From the NCBI RefSeq assembly GCF_002105155.1, contig NW_019029002.1, positions 186,001 to 250,000 on the forward strand: DNA of 64,000 nt, in the 5' to 3' direction. Below, piece by piece: positions 17,530 to 52,044 of the stretch. This DNA is from Lobosporangium transversale. Lineage: Eukaryota. The notes under the pieces are model-generated. The model was not told where the DNA came from. It saw only the letters and a program-made list of their open reading frames with translations, and searched no databases. Numbering within the stretch: position 1 is the stretch's first letter; every line of letters starts with the position of its first letter. Both the position numbers and the translations under genes were made by a program.

Positions 17530-18079
17530 GGCGACTGTTCGATGCTTGTTGGTTTTCCAAATCTGCTCTGATTTCACCATAATTTAGCAGAATTGATTAG
17601 CATCCCCTGAATAGCTGCCATCCAAAGGGATTAACTTCGAATGGACAGGATTTACTGTGTTGTTCAAAACAATAAAACTTGACTGAAAGTCTGCTAATCC
17701 TCAAACCATGAGGCAAATAATGCCTCTGAACGCTTCAATAGGATTATGGCGAGCTTTTGGGGTGCAGAAAAGACAAGATTGTCTCTTTTGAGCAATGAAG
17801 GATATAGGATTTGTTCCTTGGAGGCAAACTTTTTTAAAACCACGCTTGTTGCTAGTAAAAACACAAATGGTTCCCGTTTTCCGCATACTTTCAGCGCTTC
17901 CACAATCCAAGGGCTGTGATGTAGCCATTAAATGTTACATGTTTGTCGAAGTGTTGACACATCCCTTGCAAAAGTTCAGATGTATGCTAAGAATATTGTT
18001 TAAGGGACGTAGAGTGGTCAATAGCATGTGGCAGTATTCAGGTGTTTATACAGTATCAGATGGAGTCCGAACAGTCGCC
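17530..18079. repeat. E1 left long direct repeat (550 bp) with 12-bp TIRs GGCGACTGTTCG...CGAACAGTCGCC
   Basis: Matches 27455-28003 with about 12 substitutions and 1 indel counted by eye. Confidence 0.95.
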
Positions 18080-18211
18080 ATATTCGGATGGATTGTAAAT
18101 TGAAGTGAATATTTGAATAGGTAGGATGAAAATAAAGTGAACACATGGAATAATATAGAGGAGTTGTAATAAAGCGCTTTATATCCAATAGCTTGCAAAG
18201 AGTATATCTGT

Positions 18212-19600
18212 ATGAGCGCTGTTTCTGAGGAATATGTACGCCTTGTTGAGGCTCAGTGGAGGTTCATGCAAGAGGAGTGGCCAGCTATAAAGAAAGCCAA
18301 GTTTCATCGCACAGAGATGAAAGAGATATCTGACGTAACACACGTCAAGTCAATGGTGCTTGACCGTCTAGGATTCATCCCTACGTTCTTTTTTCTGACA
18401 CAAGTATTTGGAGTGCGTGACTATGGTAGCCCATATCGTAATGTCGAAAAGGGTCTTCTGCTCCTGTATGCACTAATCACAGGAGATTCATTGTCTACAA
18501 TGTCAAGGTTCATACCAAAGACGTCCTTTTACGACTTGCACAGGGAATTTTATCTTCGGGACCCTGTGAAACTACATGATGACATAACCTCAATGATGAG
18601 AGATATGTGCTCGAGTTTGAAGCTACGATTGCTACTTGCCAAGAACAACCCTGATCCATTCAAGCATGTGACATTGAATCTAGACGGACATGACACAAGA
18701 GTCAGCTACATCGGTGCTGACAAGCCAAGTCTCTACTCTTATAAACTCAAGAAGTCGGGTTTTCGTATTCAAGTGTGTTCAGACATGAACAATATCATAT
18801 TGTTTGCATCCAAGCCAGCTCCTTGTCGAGATTTCAATGATGGGACTATGCTTGTGAAGATGAACATTGCATCGCATATACACAAGCTGGACTGTGTTGC
18901 TCTTGATGGTGGCTACAGTGGGTTCGTTAGACAAATTGTCGAACCATCAAATGCACTGTCCTACGAAAATTTCTCTTATCCTGTGCGCAAGACTAGGGGG
19001 ATCGCCATGACAGACCAAGAGTTACATTACAATAAAGCGTTTGGTGGGTTTCGGTCAAGCATCGAAGGGTGCTTTGGAGACATGCAATCCACCTTCTCCA
19101 AGTTCACACACGACGCTCCCATCCGTTTCTCAGACGCAAAGACGTTTGATCTCCAATTCAAGCTTTGTTGCCTGCTTATGAATATCAAGAGAGTCGTGTC
19201 AATCCATAATATCCCCACTCAGACGCACCACACATTCTGGATGCAAGATGCGTTTGACTTTCCAGACAATAATGAGTATCAGGTTGCTTATGAGAAGCTC
19301 CCCAGCATCAAAGTCAAACTAAATCATGGTCGAAGTCTTTTAGAACTACAAGAAGCGTTCCTATCTGTAGCTAGTTCGCAGCCTAACATACTAGACACTG
19401 CAGATGAGACTATGGCAGAGACAGCGCAGGAGGGATACGAGGTTGCTAGGATTTTAGACCATCGCGGGGAAGGTGAGGACATGGAGTTTCTGGTTCAATG
19501 GGAAGGCTTCGATATCTCTGAGGCAACATGGGTGGCTCTACAGCATTCCAACTACAAACAGTGCATCCAAGACTATTGGAGAACCAAAATCAGCTTCTAG
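18212..19600 (+). CDS. PIF/Harbinger (IS5-like, DDE_Tnp_4-type) transposase with C-terminal chromodomain
   Basis: LNLDGHD (D1), VALDGGY (D2), YN..FGGFRSSIEGCFG (E); C-terminal YEVARILDHR...EFLVQWEGFDISEATW chromodomain; intronless 462 aa; clear homolog of 41558-42943. Confidence 0.88.
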   Translation: MSAVSEEYVRLVEAQWRFMQEEWPAIKKAKFHRTEMKEISDVTHVKSMVLDRLGFIPTFFFLTQVFGVRDYGSPYRNVEKGLLLLYALITGDSLSTMSRFIPKTSFYDLHREFYLRDPVKLHDDITSMMRDMCSSLKLRLLLAKNNPDPFKHVTLNLDGHDTRVSYIGADKPSLYSYKLKKSGFRIQVCSDMNNIILFASKPAPCRDFNDGTMLVKMNIASHIHKLDCVALDGGYSGFVRQIVEPSNALSYENFSYPVRKTRGIAMTDQELHYNKAFGGFRSSIEGCFGDMQSTFSKFTHDAPIRFSDAKTFDLQFKLCCLLMNIKRVVSIHNIPTQTHHTFWMQDAFDFPDNNEYQVAYEKLPSIKVKLNHGRSLLELQEAFLSVASSQPNILDTADETMAETAQEGYEVARILDHRGEGEDMEFLVQWEGFDISEATWVALQHSNYKQCIQDYWRTKISF

Positions 19601-19636
19601 AGACCGATTGCACGTACTTTCAAAAACCATCATGAC

Positions 19637-19711
19637 GCGCACAGACCATGGGGGCGACTTTCCAAATTCTTTTATAGAGATGAAATCCAAAGTCGCCCCC
19701 GGTTAAATATT
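19637..19711 (+). repeat. E1 hairpin site 1 (orientation A)
   Basis: GCGCACAGACCAT-GGGGGCGACTTT-[27 nt]-AAAGTCGCCCCC-GGTTAAATATT. Confidence 0.95.
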
Positions 19712-19770
19712 AATCCATGACTTTTCAAAAAGAATACAATATCGTAATCTGCTCAAGCCCTCCGTTGTAT

Positions 19771-51100: not shown

Positions 51101-51249
51101 TCAAAAATAAGAAAAGCTTTTTGAATAGTGTGTTGAACGAGATTTGGGGGATCCACATAGTCAGAACTGATCACAAGTCGCATCATTATTATATCAAGTA
51201 TATGACAGAGGTTGGTAAACACAAAGATGACTTTTTCATGACACAGTAG
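48193..51249 (+). CDS. AEP primase-polymerase + Zn finger + UL9-like SF2 helicase fusion (1018 aa, intronless)
   Basis: EYYDLEW, GSMHII, HIDWIVYTKNRNFRCINSAK; CQICNRIHDNDN...LHCYR; SEPDTAKTS (degenerate Walker A), LVLDEV, HTPTITVGID, RQMLRRPR. Confidence 0.88.
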   Translation: MYKFGATFYSQKQQGLRPQAASFKRADEAQNTFLVAHQFKLNSEGKPLWAFGSYKNLQSFLECTKYVPATECFFFEQIRDGTSCWEYYDLEWDPSKTEDTEETIFSDFLQQRNAFCLEYEVLASECRILSASNAEKGSMHIILSGSGFKFRDNTCHMKNFMDAFHLMVKEHPLSKHIDWIVYTKNRNFRCINSAKRHDPTRVLRPAIWHNASCSAPESEFFVTNVSADATDIVHCHLAASKGARNKVPQVQGSEQDQDQEQNEKLPPSVIKAINTMLANMDCLSQFKIGESHNNRMHLKRIRSGHCQICNRIHDNDNAYVTIADQGKVYLHCYRVDANSRRDGLQIGKLDFPSMIALRVHRAQTNQEETITANKHCSLRHLEYKKVMKLLQNQKQSLVIRSEPDTAKTSFVESFMDRHKNLAYIFVSPRQSLARNLEKRLELRSYLSFPGPVSGKRVIIQAESLYKLDLEYYSMDVVLVLDEVCSIFEQMTSVGTMKGRHGANNQVLEELMRKSKRVIALDADVTDREAEIIKSVRSDVFVIHNTFKPQQGHQVVCFQHKEVLESHVIDLVKSGHKVWISTTHSAEDAETLHKTLQKMGRRGVCITKNTSDADKIGISQNINKIVLDLDYFIHTPTITVGIDCNVKHFNYVVGFFEAQTGVIVETCRQMLRRPRNVSTQKYLIYIKNVTSNLPTTFREIVEYMESQEVRLNGCELDISGFPYISQMGQPPSVDLKVLYALIYMQTLIKKHLTKNDFYQRFIDQMVQVGCSVQEADSHLCKNDEYTVELNQNKKELLHIKYTGISKARVLDTEEFSRLDVQNSRTQEEQYAVTKYKLMETYSVQDASLLTPDWVEKYDKPREKKIYKNLAMLKEDPTLQILRQEDRLGLKCGKATVGVHTLGNSRYLRFKYAKDILDSCGFDSPFDDREMSAEELKRKIDLRWSDLVKDGSMRDICTQLGIRCPSHNNWDFKNKKSFLNSVLNEIWGIHIVRTDHKSHHYYIKYMTEVGKHKDDFFMTQ

Positions 51250-51423
51250 GCTTGTATATAATGATTTTTAAAAAAGTGGCGTCCTTCAGTCAAGATTTAG
51301 AAGATGGATTCAAGTATAGTTCATGTAATATTACCATCTGGGTAACCAATCAGAGCAGGCTAATAGGCTAATAGGCTAATATATTATTTGAGTTACTACT
51401 GAGGACTATATAACCGGGAGTAA

Positions 51424-51494
51424 CATTTAGCCGGGGCCAACTTACAAATTCTTTTCTAAGAGAGAGCTTGCAAGTTGGCCCCTGGTGCGTGCGC
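51424..51494 (-). repeat. E2 hairpin site 4 (orientation B, 'flip' core)
   Basis: CATTTAGCC-GGGGCCAACTT-ACAAATTCTTTTCTAAGAGAGAGCTTGC-AAGTTGGCCCC-TGGTGCGTGCGC, 34 bp before the right direct repeat. Confidence 0.95.
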
Positions 51495-51528
51495 AGGGCT
51501 TGACTCACCCTCCAAAAGAAATTGGGAA

Positions 51529-52044
51529 GGCGGACATCCGAACCCGAGAAGTTGCCCAAAATACAAATAAATGTAAGATATTCGAAGGTCCAAGCTACAT
51601 CCGAAGGCTCTCAGAAAGTAAGTTGTTGCCATAACTAATCTTTTAAAATATATTCTGATGAATAGATGCGAGACTCGAGCAACAAATCTAATTAAAAACA
51701 TTCTAACTATCACAAAGCTGAAGTCCTTTTGCCCGGTGATTTGATAGGCTGTTTAAAATTTATTTATTAAAGACATTGACTACTTATCTGAGGATAGACT
51801 TCATGTGAGACACTGATGCGGCTGGTCAACCTATAACCAGACCAACAGACACCACTGCTGCCTTCGGATTATAATGCCAAACACCCAATACATATACTAC
51901 GGGTTCATTAAAACACACTGTTCGGCCTGCAGCTCACTAATATCAAACACTCCCAAATTGGGCATCTCTTTTTTAAAAAGTGCGATTAAATTCGAACAGG
52001 ATTTATCTGGGTGGCCAAATCAGTTTCGAGCTCGGATGTCCGCC
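51529..52044. repeat. E2 right long direct repeat (516 bp) with 13-bp TIRs
   Basis: Near-identical to 40949-41464; followed by TAA. Confidence 0.97.

What the first reader, a model, noticed from the sequence alone, without database searches (positions are those of the whole stretch)
17530..52044. Candidate new family of self-replicating, cargo-carrying DNA elements (two diverged members, E1 and E2)
Seen in sequence: two 10-11 kb units share one scaffold, DR - transposase - hairpin A - module - hairpin A - module - hairpin B - module - hairpin B - ~30 bp - DR. They also share three homologous core genes: DDE transposase-chromodomain, AEP/UL9-like primase-helicase and a coiled-coil protein. Their terminal repeats show no visible similarity beyond GGCG...CGCC, and their cargo differs. 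Established: PIF/Harbinger elements normally carry only a transposase plus a Myb/SANT partner between simple TIRs. Polintons use PolB plus a retroviral-type integrase, Helitrons use HUH-Rep/Pif1, and Starships use a tyrosine recombinase; none matches this layout. Inference: a virus- or plasmid-like replicon with its own primase/helicase and hairpin origins that integrates using a Harbinger transposase. I do not recognise this architecture as described, but I cannot search the literature.
Basis: partly seen in the sequence, partly recalled or inferred. Interest (0 to 1): 0.97.

Follow-up and report, generated by a model that had tools for sequence, protein, structure and literature searches.

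The report
Fungal transposons carrying their own replicator
Two related jumping-gene elements in a soil fungus each carry, between long direct repeats, a virus- and plasmid-type DNA-copying enzyme plus different cargo genes, and they likely multiply as circles outside the chromosome before inserting again, which would be a new kind of mobile DNA.

Summary
E1 (17,530-28,003) and E2 (40,949-52,044) are composite-like DNA transposons of a Mortierellaceae fungus. Each is bounded by 516-550 bp direct repeats that have their own 12-13 bp inverted ends, an architecture published for KolobokP. Inside lie a Harbinger-type transposase with a chromodomain, an AEP primase/UL9-like helicase related to the plasmid initiator CyRepA1 and to giant-virus proteins, a DUF3627-like protein, four copies of one palindromic site, and cargo. 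E2 inserted as a unit: TAA duplication, and its removal rejoins a host reading frame. The E1 family is multi-copy and covered by spliced RNA contigs. Core genes are pairwise neighbours in about a dozen other Mortierellaceae species. Related transposases sit beside other replication-type genes instead: a D5 primase-helicase, or a likely Rep_trans-type rolling-circle initiator, once in a circularly assembled 3.5-kb unit with E1-like ends. Best reading (0.6): a transposon-replicon that amplifies as circles or multimers and reinserts by its transposase. Replication outside the chromosome is inferred, not shown; E2 is at single-copy depth. Ten literature searches found no description; Repbase and Dfam could not be searched.

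The parts
17530..28003 (.). Element E1 (LTDR-internal region-LTDR), 10.5 kb
   Evidence: family multi-copy in DNA run X4
17530..18079 (.). E1 left long terminal direct repeat, 550 bp, 12-bp inverted ends starting GGCGACTGTT
   Evidence: junction with unique flank also in a contig of X4
18212..19600 (+). E1 transposase, DDE_Tnp_4 plus C-terminal chromodomain, 462 aa
   Evidence: E 2e-8 and 1e-9
19633..19711 (+). E1 palindromic site S1 (forward)
19771..22963 (-). E1 AEP primase / UL9-like SF2 helicase; frameshift near 22,709 in this copy only
   Evidence: frameshift absent from 3 contigs of X4 and 1 of X5
23061..23624 (-). E1 coiled-coil + DUF3627-like protein (main exon; a short 5' exon likely lies upstream)
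   Evidence: RNA loose ends at 23,620 and 23,691
23970..24044 (+). E1 site S2 (forward)
24424..27244 (+). E1 cargo: Crinkler-type gene, in pieces in this copy; its first intron contains site S3
   Evidence: Crinkler N-terminal domain E 2e-21; GT..AG joint 24,827-25,253 in X5
24951..25022 (-). E1 site S3 (reverse), inside the cargo intron
27353..27431 (-). E1 site S4 (reverse)
27455..28003 (.). E1 right LTDR, 549 bp; no target duplication, abuts another repeat
40946..40948 (+). E2 left target-site duplication TAA
40949..52044 (.). Element E2, 11.1 kb, inserted in an LRR-like pseudogene on the minus strand
40949..41464 (.). E2 left LTDR, 516 bp, 13-bp inverted ends starting GGCGGACATC
41558..42943 (-). 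E2 transposase, DDE_Tnp_4 plus chromodomain, 461 aa, intact
43010..43076 (+). E2 site S1 (forward, spacer 'flip')
43387..44058 (-). E2 coiled-coil + DUF3627-like protein, 223 aa
   Evidence: covered by an RNA contig of X5
44506..44600 (+). E2 site S2 (forward, spacer 'flop')
45354..47208 (+). E2 cargo: two-exon gene of unknown family
   Evidence: GT..AG joint 45,570-45,668 in X5; no Pfam, NCBIfam or PHROG hit
48044..48110 (-). E2 site S3 (reverse, spacer 'flop')
48193..51249 (+). E2 AEP primase / UL9-like helicase, 1018 aa, open frame
51426..51498 (-). E2 site S4 (reverse, spacer 'flip')
51529..52044 (.). E2 right LTDR, 516 bp
52045..52047 (+). E2 right target-site duplication TAA

Best explanation
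E1 and E2 are composite-like DNA transposons (long direct repeat - internal region - long direct repeat) that insert as whole units and carry their own primase-helicase, which likely lets them copy themselves as circles or tandem multimers outside the chromosome before the transposase inserts them again. Shown: the architecture; insertion of E2 as a unit with a 3-bp duplication; multi-copy spread of the E1 family; recurrent linkage of the core genes; other replication-type genes beside related transposases. Inferred: (1) recombination between the two repeats releases a circle with one repeat; (2) the AEP/UL9-like protein, perhaps with the DUF3627-like protein, starts replication at the palindromic sites, host polymerase doing the synthesis; (3) multimers regenerate two identical repeats, from which the transposase cuts a full unit, or a single repeat as a non-autonomous element; (4) the chromodomain steers insertion by reading methylated histones; (5) recombination or template switching at the four sites inverts, deletes and swaps modules and so changes the cargo.
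For: Unit insertion: TAA on both sides of E2; removing it plus one TAA gives a continuous frame, while offsets of 1, 2 or 4 bases do not. Replication protein: Herpes_ori_bp; AEP-type, zinc-finger and SF2 motifs conserved in alignment A1 (motif names recalled); CyRepA1 E 8e-58, 196.7 bits against a cut-off of 200; 85 plasmid records hit, the 12 listed all annotated CyRepA1; CyRepA1 is needed for autonomous plasmid replication (PMC9978351, passages); a Marseillevirus origin-binding protein among full-length relatives. Linkage: 5 transposase-DUF3627 and 3 helicase-DUF3627 pairs share contig length and neighbouring locus tags; 9 of 392 stored proteins are merged gene models of two modules, 3 of them helicase+transposase. 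Exchange of partners: of 45 metagenome loci with this transposase, 22 carry the A3-family protein, 6 an unknown 770-aa protein, 1 a UL9-like gene, 1 a D5 primase-helicase, 1 the DUF3627 gene, 14 none seen. L003 (UL9-like) and L010 (D5) transposases are 87% identical; E1's transposase groups with L001 (SH-aLRT 100, quick tree), whose partner is A3-family and whose 418-bp repeat has E1's GGCGACTGT ends. L001/L002 are circular permutations holding one repeat and two genes. Spacer flip/flop at E2 sites; module order and orientation differ between E1 and E2; a copy running from the cargo intron straight to the S4 region stands in DNA and RNA contigs.
Against: No extrachromosomal form was seen in this organism. 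E2 lies at flank-like depth in DNA runs X2 and X4. Higher depth of E1 in X4 (core 55-125, repeats 336-462, flanks about 7-10) is no copy number and fits chromosomal copies as well. Circular contigs in metagenomes can be collapsed multi-copy or tandem elements. All three core genes on one contig were not shown for any other species; most of the 99 DUF3627 hits have no partner visible in the truncated hit lists. E1 has no target duplication. The E2 helicase, like two relatives, has a degenerate Walker A motif. The Rep_trans identity of the A3 family rests on a middling fold match (Z 6.8, rmsd 6.2, 176 aligned, rank 4 behind TBP folds), weak Foldseek hits (E 5e-3 to 1e-2) and Atlas leads under 0.9; the profile comparison with pT181 RepC was negative. 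L015, also circular, showed no TIR-bounded repeat.
Confidence: 0.6

Rival explanations
1. The S1-S4 segment is an independent small linear replicon bounded by inverted palindromic ends (transpoviron-like), and a composite transposon has merely captured it; the two halves work separately and the transposase is only a vehicle.
For: S1 and S4, and S2 and S3, are inverted pairs, as ends of linear elements would be; flip/flop spacers are typical of hairpin-ended genomes (recalled). Many helicase and DUF3627 homologues have no transposase visible beside them. An earlier unchecked note (e1-9898344) reads a similar palindrome array in another fungus this way.
Against: Transposase-helicase and transposase-DUF3627 adjacency recurs across about six genera, and in 24 of 45 metagenome loci the transposase has a replication-type neighbour (22 of them the only likely Rep_trans-type). 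L001 is a compact unit of repeat, transposase and partner with no palindromic site found.
Confidence: 0.22
2. An ordinary cut-and-paste composite transposon; the primase-helicase is cargo or an accessory factor (gap filling, re-replication at the donor site) and no free replicating form exists.
For: E2 is at single-copy depth; helicases are known accessory genes of KolobokH (PMC9587614, text read); KolobokP keeps the same architecture without a replication protein.
Against: Unrelated initiator-type proteins (UL9-like, D5, likely Rep_trans) replace one another beside closely related transposases, which passive cargo does not predict; conserved palindromic sites flank the modules.
Confidence: 0.13
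3. The elements are remnants of an endogenous giant virus, or a family already catalogued in Repbase/Dfam under another name.
For: AEP-UL9 and DUF3627 both have Nucleocytoviricota relatives (PMC11253617 passages). Repbase and Dfam could not be searched.
Against: No capsid, packaging ATPase or polymerase among the ORFs scanned; no relative in IMG/VR by three pattern scans; compact, sharply bounded units with a target duplication.
Confidence: 0.05

Closest known systems
KolobokP composite-like DNA transposons (PMC9587614; abstract, opening text and passages read)
   Same: Repeat-internal region-repeat layout; repeats of 450-660 bp with their own 11-18 bp inverted ends; transposase inside; solo repeats, multimers and a one-repeat circle are proposed there.
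   Different: Kolobok transposase and 3-5 bp (TTAA-type) duplications there, DDE_Tnp_4 plus chromodomain and TAA here; His-Me homing nuclease there, primase-helicase, DUF3627, palindromic sites and cargo here; 4-5 kb in animals versus 10-11 kb in fungi.
PIF/Harbinger group of the PHIS superfamily (PMC4482050, passages)
   Same: DDE_Tnp_4 transposase, 3-bp duplication, short inverted ends starting with G.
   Different: No Myb/SANT second gene; long direct repeats; chromodomain; replication genes; more than twice the usual 4 kb.
CyRepA1 plasmids of cyanobacteria (PMC9978351, passages) and the AEP-UL9 proteins of mriyaviruses, mimivirus R8 and ASFV pF1055L (PMC11253617, passages)
   Same: Homologous primase-helicase; no polymerase of its own; SF2 and SF3 helicases replace each other in mriyaviruses as UL9-like and D5 do here.
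   Different: Here it sits in a eukaryotic chromosomal transposon, without capsid genes.
Transpovirons and Tlr1 (PMC3671162, passages)
   Same: Small helicase-bearing elements of a few genes linked to the giant-virus gene pool.
   Different: Those have an SF1 helicase; transpovirons are linear plasmids of mimiviruses; neither is described there with long direct repeats or a Harbinger-type transposase.
Polintons, Helitrons, Teratorn, IS26 translocatable units (definitions recalled; IS26 units as mentioned in PMC9587614)
   Same: Couple replication or a circular intermediate to integration.
   Different: No PolB, rve integrase, capsid or HUH domain found; no herpesvirus gene set; the transposase lies between the repeats, not inside them as in IS26.

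Membership tests
PIF/Harbinger | DDE_Tnp_4 transposase | tested here: met
   34.2 and 33.2 bits against a cut-off of 24.8; D156 and D230 invariant in 38 sequences
PIF/Harbinger | 3-bp TWA target duplication (TWA recalled) | tested here: met
   E2 TAA/TAA with frame restoration; absent at E1
PIF/Harbinger | Second gene with a Myb/SANT domain | tested here: not met
   No such Pfam hit in the element ORFs scanned
PIF/Harbinger | Single pair of terminal inverted repeats, no long direct repeats | tested here: not met
   Four inverted ends on two direct repeats per element
PIF/Harbinger | Placement in the PIF/Harbinger clade of a PHIS tree | not tested
   No reference PHIS transposases were fetched; the tree holds only this lineage
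KolobokP | Long terminal direct repeats with their own short inverted ends | tested here: met
   516-550 bp with 12-13 bp ends
KolobokP | Kolobok transposase and TTAA-type duplication | tested here: not met
   DDE_Tnp_4 and TAA
KolobokP | His-Me finger homing nuclease | tested here: not met
   No such Pfam hit in the element ORFs; the E2 cargo remains unidentified
KolobokP | Solo repeats and multimers in the genome | tested here: inconclusive
   Repeat depth far above core depth for E1 in X4; no genome held
Polinton/Maverick | Protein-primed PolB, rve integrase, capsid proteins | tested here: not met
   No such ORF or domain in either element
Helitron/Replitron | HUH Rep domain, no target duplication | tested here: not met
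   No HUH hit; E2 has a duplication
Transpoviron | SF1 helicase | tested here: not met
   SF2 UL9-like helicase
Transpoviron | Free linear plasmid associated with a giant virus | not testable with these tools
   Only contigs, no raw reads, were available
Endogenous Nucleocytoviricota / mriyavirus | Major capsid protein and packaging ATPase | tested here: not met
   Not among element ORFs
CyRepA1-type replicon | CyRepA1-family initiator | tested here: inconclusive
   E 8e-58 over residues 398-888 but 196.7 bits, just under the cut-off of 200
CyRepA1-type replicon | Autonomous replication that depends on the protein | not testable with these tools
   Needs a bench assay
Rep_trans rolling-circle initiator (A3-family partner in relatives) | TBP-like Rep_trans fold and catalytic tyrosine motif | tested here: inconclusive
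   4CIJ Z 6.8, 176 aligned, 16% identity; Atlas leads 0.86; profile test against RepC negative

The most novel reading that the evidence does not exclude
A new class of eukaryotic mobile DNA: integrative replicons of early-diverging fungi in which one chromodomain-bearing Harbinger-type transposase lineage, working on composite direct-repeat ends, is coupled to interchangeable replication initiators (AEP-UL9, D5 primase-helicase, Rep_trans-type), replicates outside the chromosome, and shuffles cargo such as Crinkler-type genes at its palindromic origins.
Probability: 0.5. Interest if true: 0.93.

Novelty: categorically new. Interest (0 to 1): 0.83.

Why it matters
If the replication step is real, these are eukaryotic counterparts of integrative plasmids, built from a cut-and-paste transposase rather than an integrase or recombinase. 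They would add a class beside Polintons, Helitrons and Starships. They would explain why Mucoromycota genomes hold many giant-virus-like primase-helicase and DUF3627 genes without capsids. They would give a concrete route for the spread and domain shuffling of Crinkler-type genes: here a palindromic site lies in the intron between the N-terminal and C-terminal parts. They also make testable the open proposal of a one-repeat circular intermediate for composite-like eukaryotic transposons, and could supply an episomal vector and an insertion tool for oleaginous Mortierellaceae. Even without replication, this is a second, independent origin of composite architecture in eukaryotic DNA transposons.

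Tried and rejected
No genome is held for the window, so copy number, solo repeats and further target duplications could not be counted. IMG/VR scans with the transposase, helicase and A3 alignments found no relative; a site-flank pattern gave 24 matches, none near a core gene by tblastn, taken as chance. No RNA holder is on record; X5 is RNA by guess, though it shows GT..AG joints. X5 contigs did not cover the E2 transposase or helicase; this is no evidence on expression. X13 showed only C>T/G>A changes on 4 contigs and was set aside. No laid run showed an empty site for E1 or E2; X6 held only short distant pieces. The X5 joint 19,635 to 27,428 on opposite strands has only 60 letters on its short side and does not prove inversion. 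The single-sequence model of the E2 cargo had pLDDT 37 and was not searched; a restriction-endonuclease-like fold is only my recalled impression. A3 found nothing in PDB sequences, plasmids, NCBIfam or PHROGs. Covariation counts on the eight sites were uninformative because the aligner put the E1 and E2 right arms out of register. The helicase codon test was out of frame and was redone. In one search L007 was labelled 'Rep' by eye; tblastn did not confirm it and it counts as 'none'. The careful tree did not finish; the quick tree has SH-aLRT support only. Literature searches listed no paper describing this element; the Rep_trans term occurred in none of the 15 listed papers. No supplements were read; those of PMC9587614, PMC4482050 and PMC5751038 could list related fungal families.
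Full report
Setting. The window is fungal chromosomal DNA with spliced housekeeping genes (GMP synthase, Mlh1, Nol10). 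The closest named relatives of the element proteins are from Mortierellaceae; a Lobosporangium transversale protein is 99.5% identical to E1's DUF3627-like protein. No whole genome is held.

Anatomy. Self-comparison gives two pairs of long direct repeats: 17,530-18,079 / 27,455-28,003 (13 differences) and 40,949-41,464 / 51,529-52,044 (1 difference). Each repeat has its own perfect inverted ends of 12 or 13 bp, beginning GGCG and ending CGCC. This is the layout that Kojima and Bao call LTDR-INT-LTDR in KolobokP (PMC9587614; abstract and opening text, passages). The E1 and E2 repeats are otherwise unrelated. Inside, both carry a DDE_Tnp_4 transposase with a chromodomain, a roughly 1,020-aa protein with Herpes_ori_bp, and a coiled-coil protein. 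Identities between E1 and E2 are 50%, 47% and 50%, and third codon positions differ most (0.66, 0.64, 0.56 against 0.26-0.41 at the first two), as under purifying selection. The chromodomains match HP1-type structures best and by eye keep the three aromatic cage residues (motif recalled).

The sites. Each element has four copies of one site of about 75 bp: a conserved left flank, GC-rich inverted arms of 11-13 bp around a 27-28 bp AT-rich spacer, and a conserved right flank. The flanks are shared by E1 and E2, while the arms differ at three positions on both sides. In E2 the spacer is inverted relative to the flanks at S2 and S3 compared with S1 and S4 (flip/flop); in E1 all four agree. Such arms are rare by chance (0-1 per 64 kb in 10 controls). 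A decayed site with features of both lies between the DUF3627 gene and the transposase in locus L008 (by eye). Module order differs: E1 has transposase, S1, helicase and DUF3627, S2, cargo with S3 in its intron, S4; E2 has the transposase inverted, S1, DUF3627, S2, cargo, S3, helicase, S4. Whether the sites extrude as hairpins or bind a dimeric protein cannot be told here.

Mobility. E2 is flanked by TAA on both sides, and removing it with one TAA gives a continuous frame through an LRR-like pseudogene; offsets of 1, 2 and 4 do not (offset 0 only adds a codon). So the whole 11.1 kb went in as one piece. E1 has no duplication; its left flank is single-copy, while its right flank is itself a high-depth repeat found with other neighbours, which suggests a later rearrangement (inference). 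In DNA run X4, a sample not flagged as a possible source, E1's core lies at depth 55-125 and its repeats at 336-462, against about 7-10 for flanks; three helicase contigs at depth 51-58 have 1-2 differences. Depth is no copy number, but the family is plainly multi-copy, and excess repeat depth fits solo repeats. The frameshift in E1's helicase is absent from the X4 and X5 contigs. E2 is at flank depth in X2 and X4. Run X5, RNA by guess but spliced, covers the DUF3627 and cargo genes of both elements and parts of the E1-family helicase and transposase. A contig joining the E1 cargo intron (24,886) to the S4 region (27,324) stands in both X4 and X5, so copies with other module content exist. Organism D (X9) holds repeats, transposase and an S1-helicase junction of the E1 family at 82-95% likeness.

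The replication module. The large protein has an N-terminal AEP-type domain, a zinc finger and an SF2 helicase (motif names recalled). It matches the plasmid initiator family CyRepA1 at E 8e-58, just under the cut-off, hits 85 plasmid records, and has a Marseillevirus origin-binding protein among its full-length relatives (1 named of 10 looked up). CyRepA1 is required for autonomous replication of pSYSA (PMC9978351, passages). The same AEP-UL9 architecture is described in mimivirus, ASFV and mriyaviruses, where SF2 and SF3 helicases exclude each other (PMC11253617, passages). The small protein's C-terminal domain matches DUF3627 domains of Nucleocytoviricota KilA-N, MSV199 and Bro proteins by predicted structure (TM 0.78 over 109 residues; features 0.89), though Pfam itself gave no hit.

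Linkage elsewhere. Of 392 stored proteins, 9 are gene models that merge two modules: transposase+DUF3627 three times, helicase+transposase three times (one, from Linnemannia gamsii, a full helicase), transposase+A3-family once (Rhizomucor pusillus), Crinkler piece+DUF3627 once, Crinkler piece+transposase once. These are adjacency evidence, probably annotation merges. Against: only 120 of 175 transposase hits were listed, most of the 99 DUF3627 hits show no partner, and no other species was shown to have all three genes on one contig.

Exchangeable partners. The metagenome scan gave 60 loci; L046-L060 are weak bacterial-like hits and were dropped. Of the other 45, 22 carry a protein of one 570-600 aa family (A3), 6 an unknown 770-aa protein, and one each a UL9-like gene, a D5 primase-helicase and the DUF3627 gene; 14, mostly short, show none. 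L001/L002 and L024/L028 are near-duplicates. Residues 84-339 of the A3 model have a TBP-like fold, and the rolling-circle initiator 4CIJ gives the longest alignment and highest identity among the top rows (Z 6.8, rmsd 6.2, 176 aligned, 16%); Foldseek and the Atlas point weakly the same way, and a profile test against RepC failed. I put Rep_trans kinship at about two in three. In the quick tree E1's transposase groups with L001 (68% identity), a unit of one 418-bp repeat with E1's end sequence, the transposase and an A3 gene, assembled as circular permutations in two metagenomes. L003 (UL9-like, E 2e-29 to the helicase profile) and L010 (D5) have 87% identical transposases. Close transposases with unrelated initiator-type neighbours are the strongest argument that a replication function, not a particular gene, is selected. 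The circular contigs are weaker: collapsed copies would assemble the same way.

Mechanism. I commit to a transposon-replicon (0.6). Recombination between the repeats would release a one-repeat circle; the primase-helicase would start replication at the palindromic sites, with host polymerase; multimers would recreate two identical repeats, from which the transposase cuts a whole unit or a solo repeat; recombination at the sites would reshuffle modules and cargo. Only the architecture, unit insertion, multi-copy state, linkage and partner exchange are shown. The main rival (0.22) is capture of an independent palindrome-ended linear replicon, the reading of an earlier unchecked note on another fungus (e1-9898344).

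Comparison and novelty. It works like KolobokP in its ends and like a CyRepA1 plasmid in its replication gene, but fails defining tests for PIF/Harbinger proper, KolobokP, Polintons, Helitrons, transpovirons and endogenous giant viruses. Passages were read in PMC4482050, PMC5751038, PMC9963178, PMC8647823, PMC12957317 and PMC3671162; none of them describes this layout, nor did the listings of ten searches. Repbase, Dfam, subscription journals and supplements were not seen. I rate it categorically new in architecture, with the replication step unproven; interest 0.83.

Noticed in passing
window 28,004-28,740: Unidentified high-depth repeat directly right of E1 (depth 284 and 102 in X4); no match to stored proteins.
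   Followed up: partly
window 44,603-44,659 and 47,960-48,016; 44,847-45,015: A further 57-bp inverted repeat just inside S2 and S3 bounds the E2 cargo, and an 80-bp tandem pair lies upstream of it with related copies elsewhere in X2, X4 and X5.
   Followed up: no
window about 44,060-44,170: The E2 DUF3627 gene appears frameshifted upstream of its 223-aa frame relative to E1; the RNA contig shows the same letters.
   Followed up: partly
L011, L014, L018, L019, L023, L032: Convergent transposase and A3-family genes bounded by exact inverted repeats of 50-140 bp at contig ends, possibly an invertible core; L023 ends in telomere-like repeats.
   Followed up: partly
L015 (6,097 bp, circular overlap 130 bp); L009, L013, L016, L027, L039: Transposase clade paired with an unknown acidic 770-aa protein with a cysteine-rich N-terminus, and in L015 a small zinc-ribbon coiled-coil frame; no family hit.
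   Followed up: partly
L010 476-1,406 and 2,702-3,175; 356-427, 1,401-1,440, 5,154-5,223: The D5-bearing relative has an inverted partial duplicate of its D5 gene and short repeated sites in both orientations, echoing the module shuffling of E1 and E2.
   Followed up: no
window 40,268-40,945 and 52,048-53,173 (minus): The gene interrupted by E2 is an LRR-like pseudogene with in-frame stops and related copies in the genome.
   Followed up: partly
window 61,495-61,712 and 59,147-59,202: A 77-bp inverted repeat (91%, 64-bp loop) and a simple-sequence palindrome lie among PAS-domain genes, unrelated to the elements.
   Followed up: no
window 34,237-34,449: Tandem 6/12-bp repeats coding a Pro/Ala/Val-rich stretch.
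   Followed up: no
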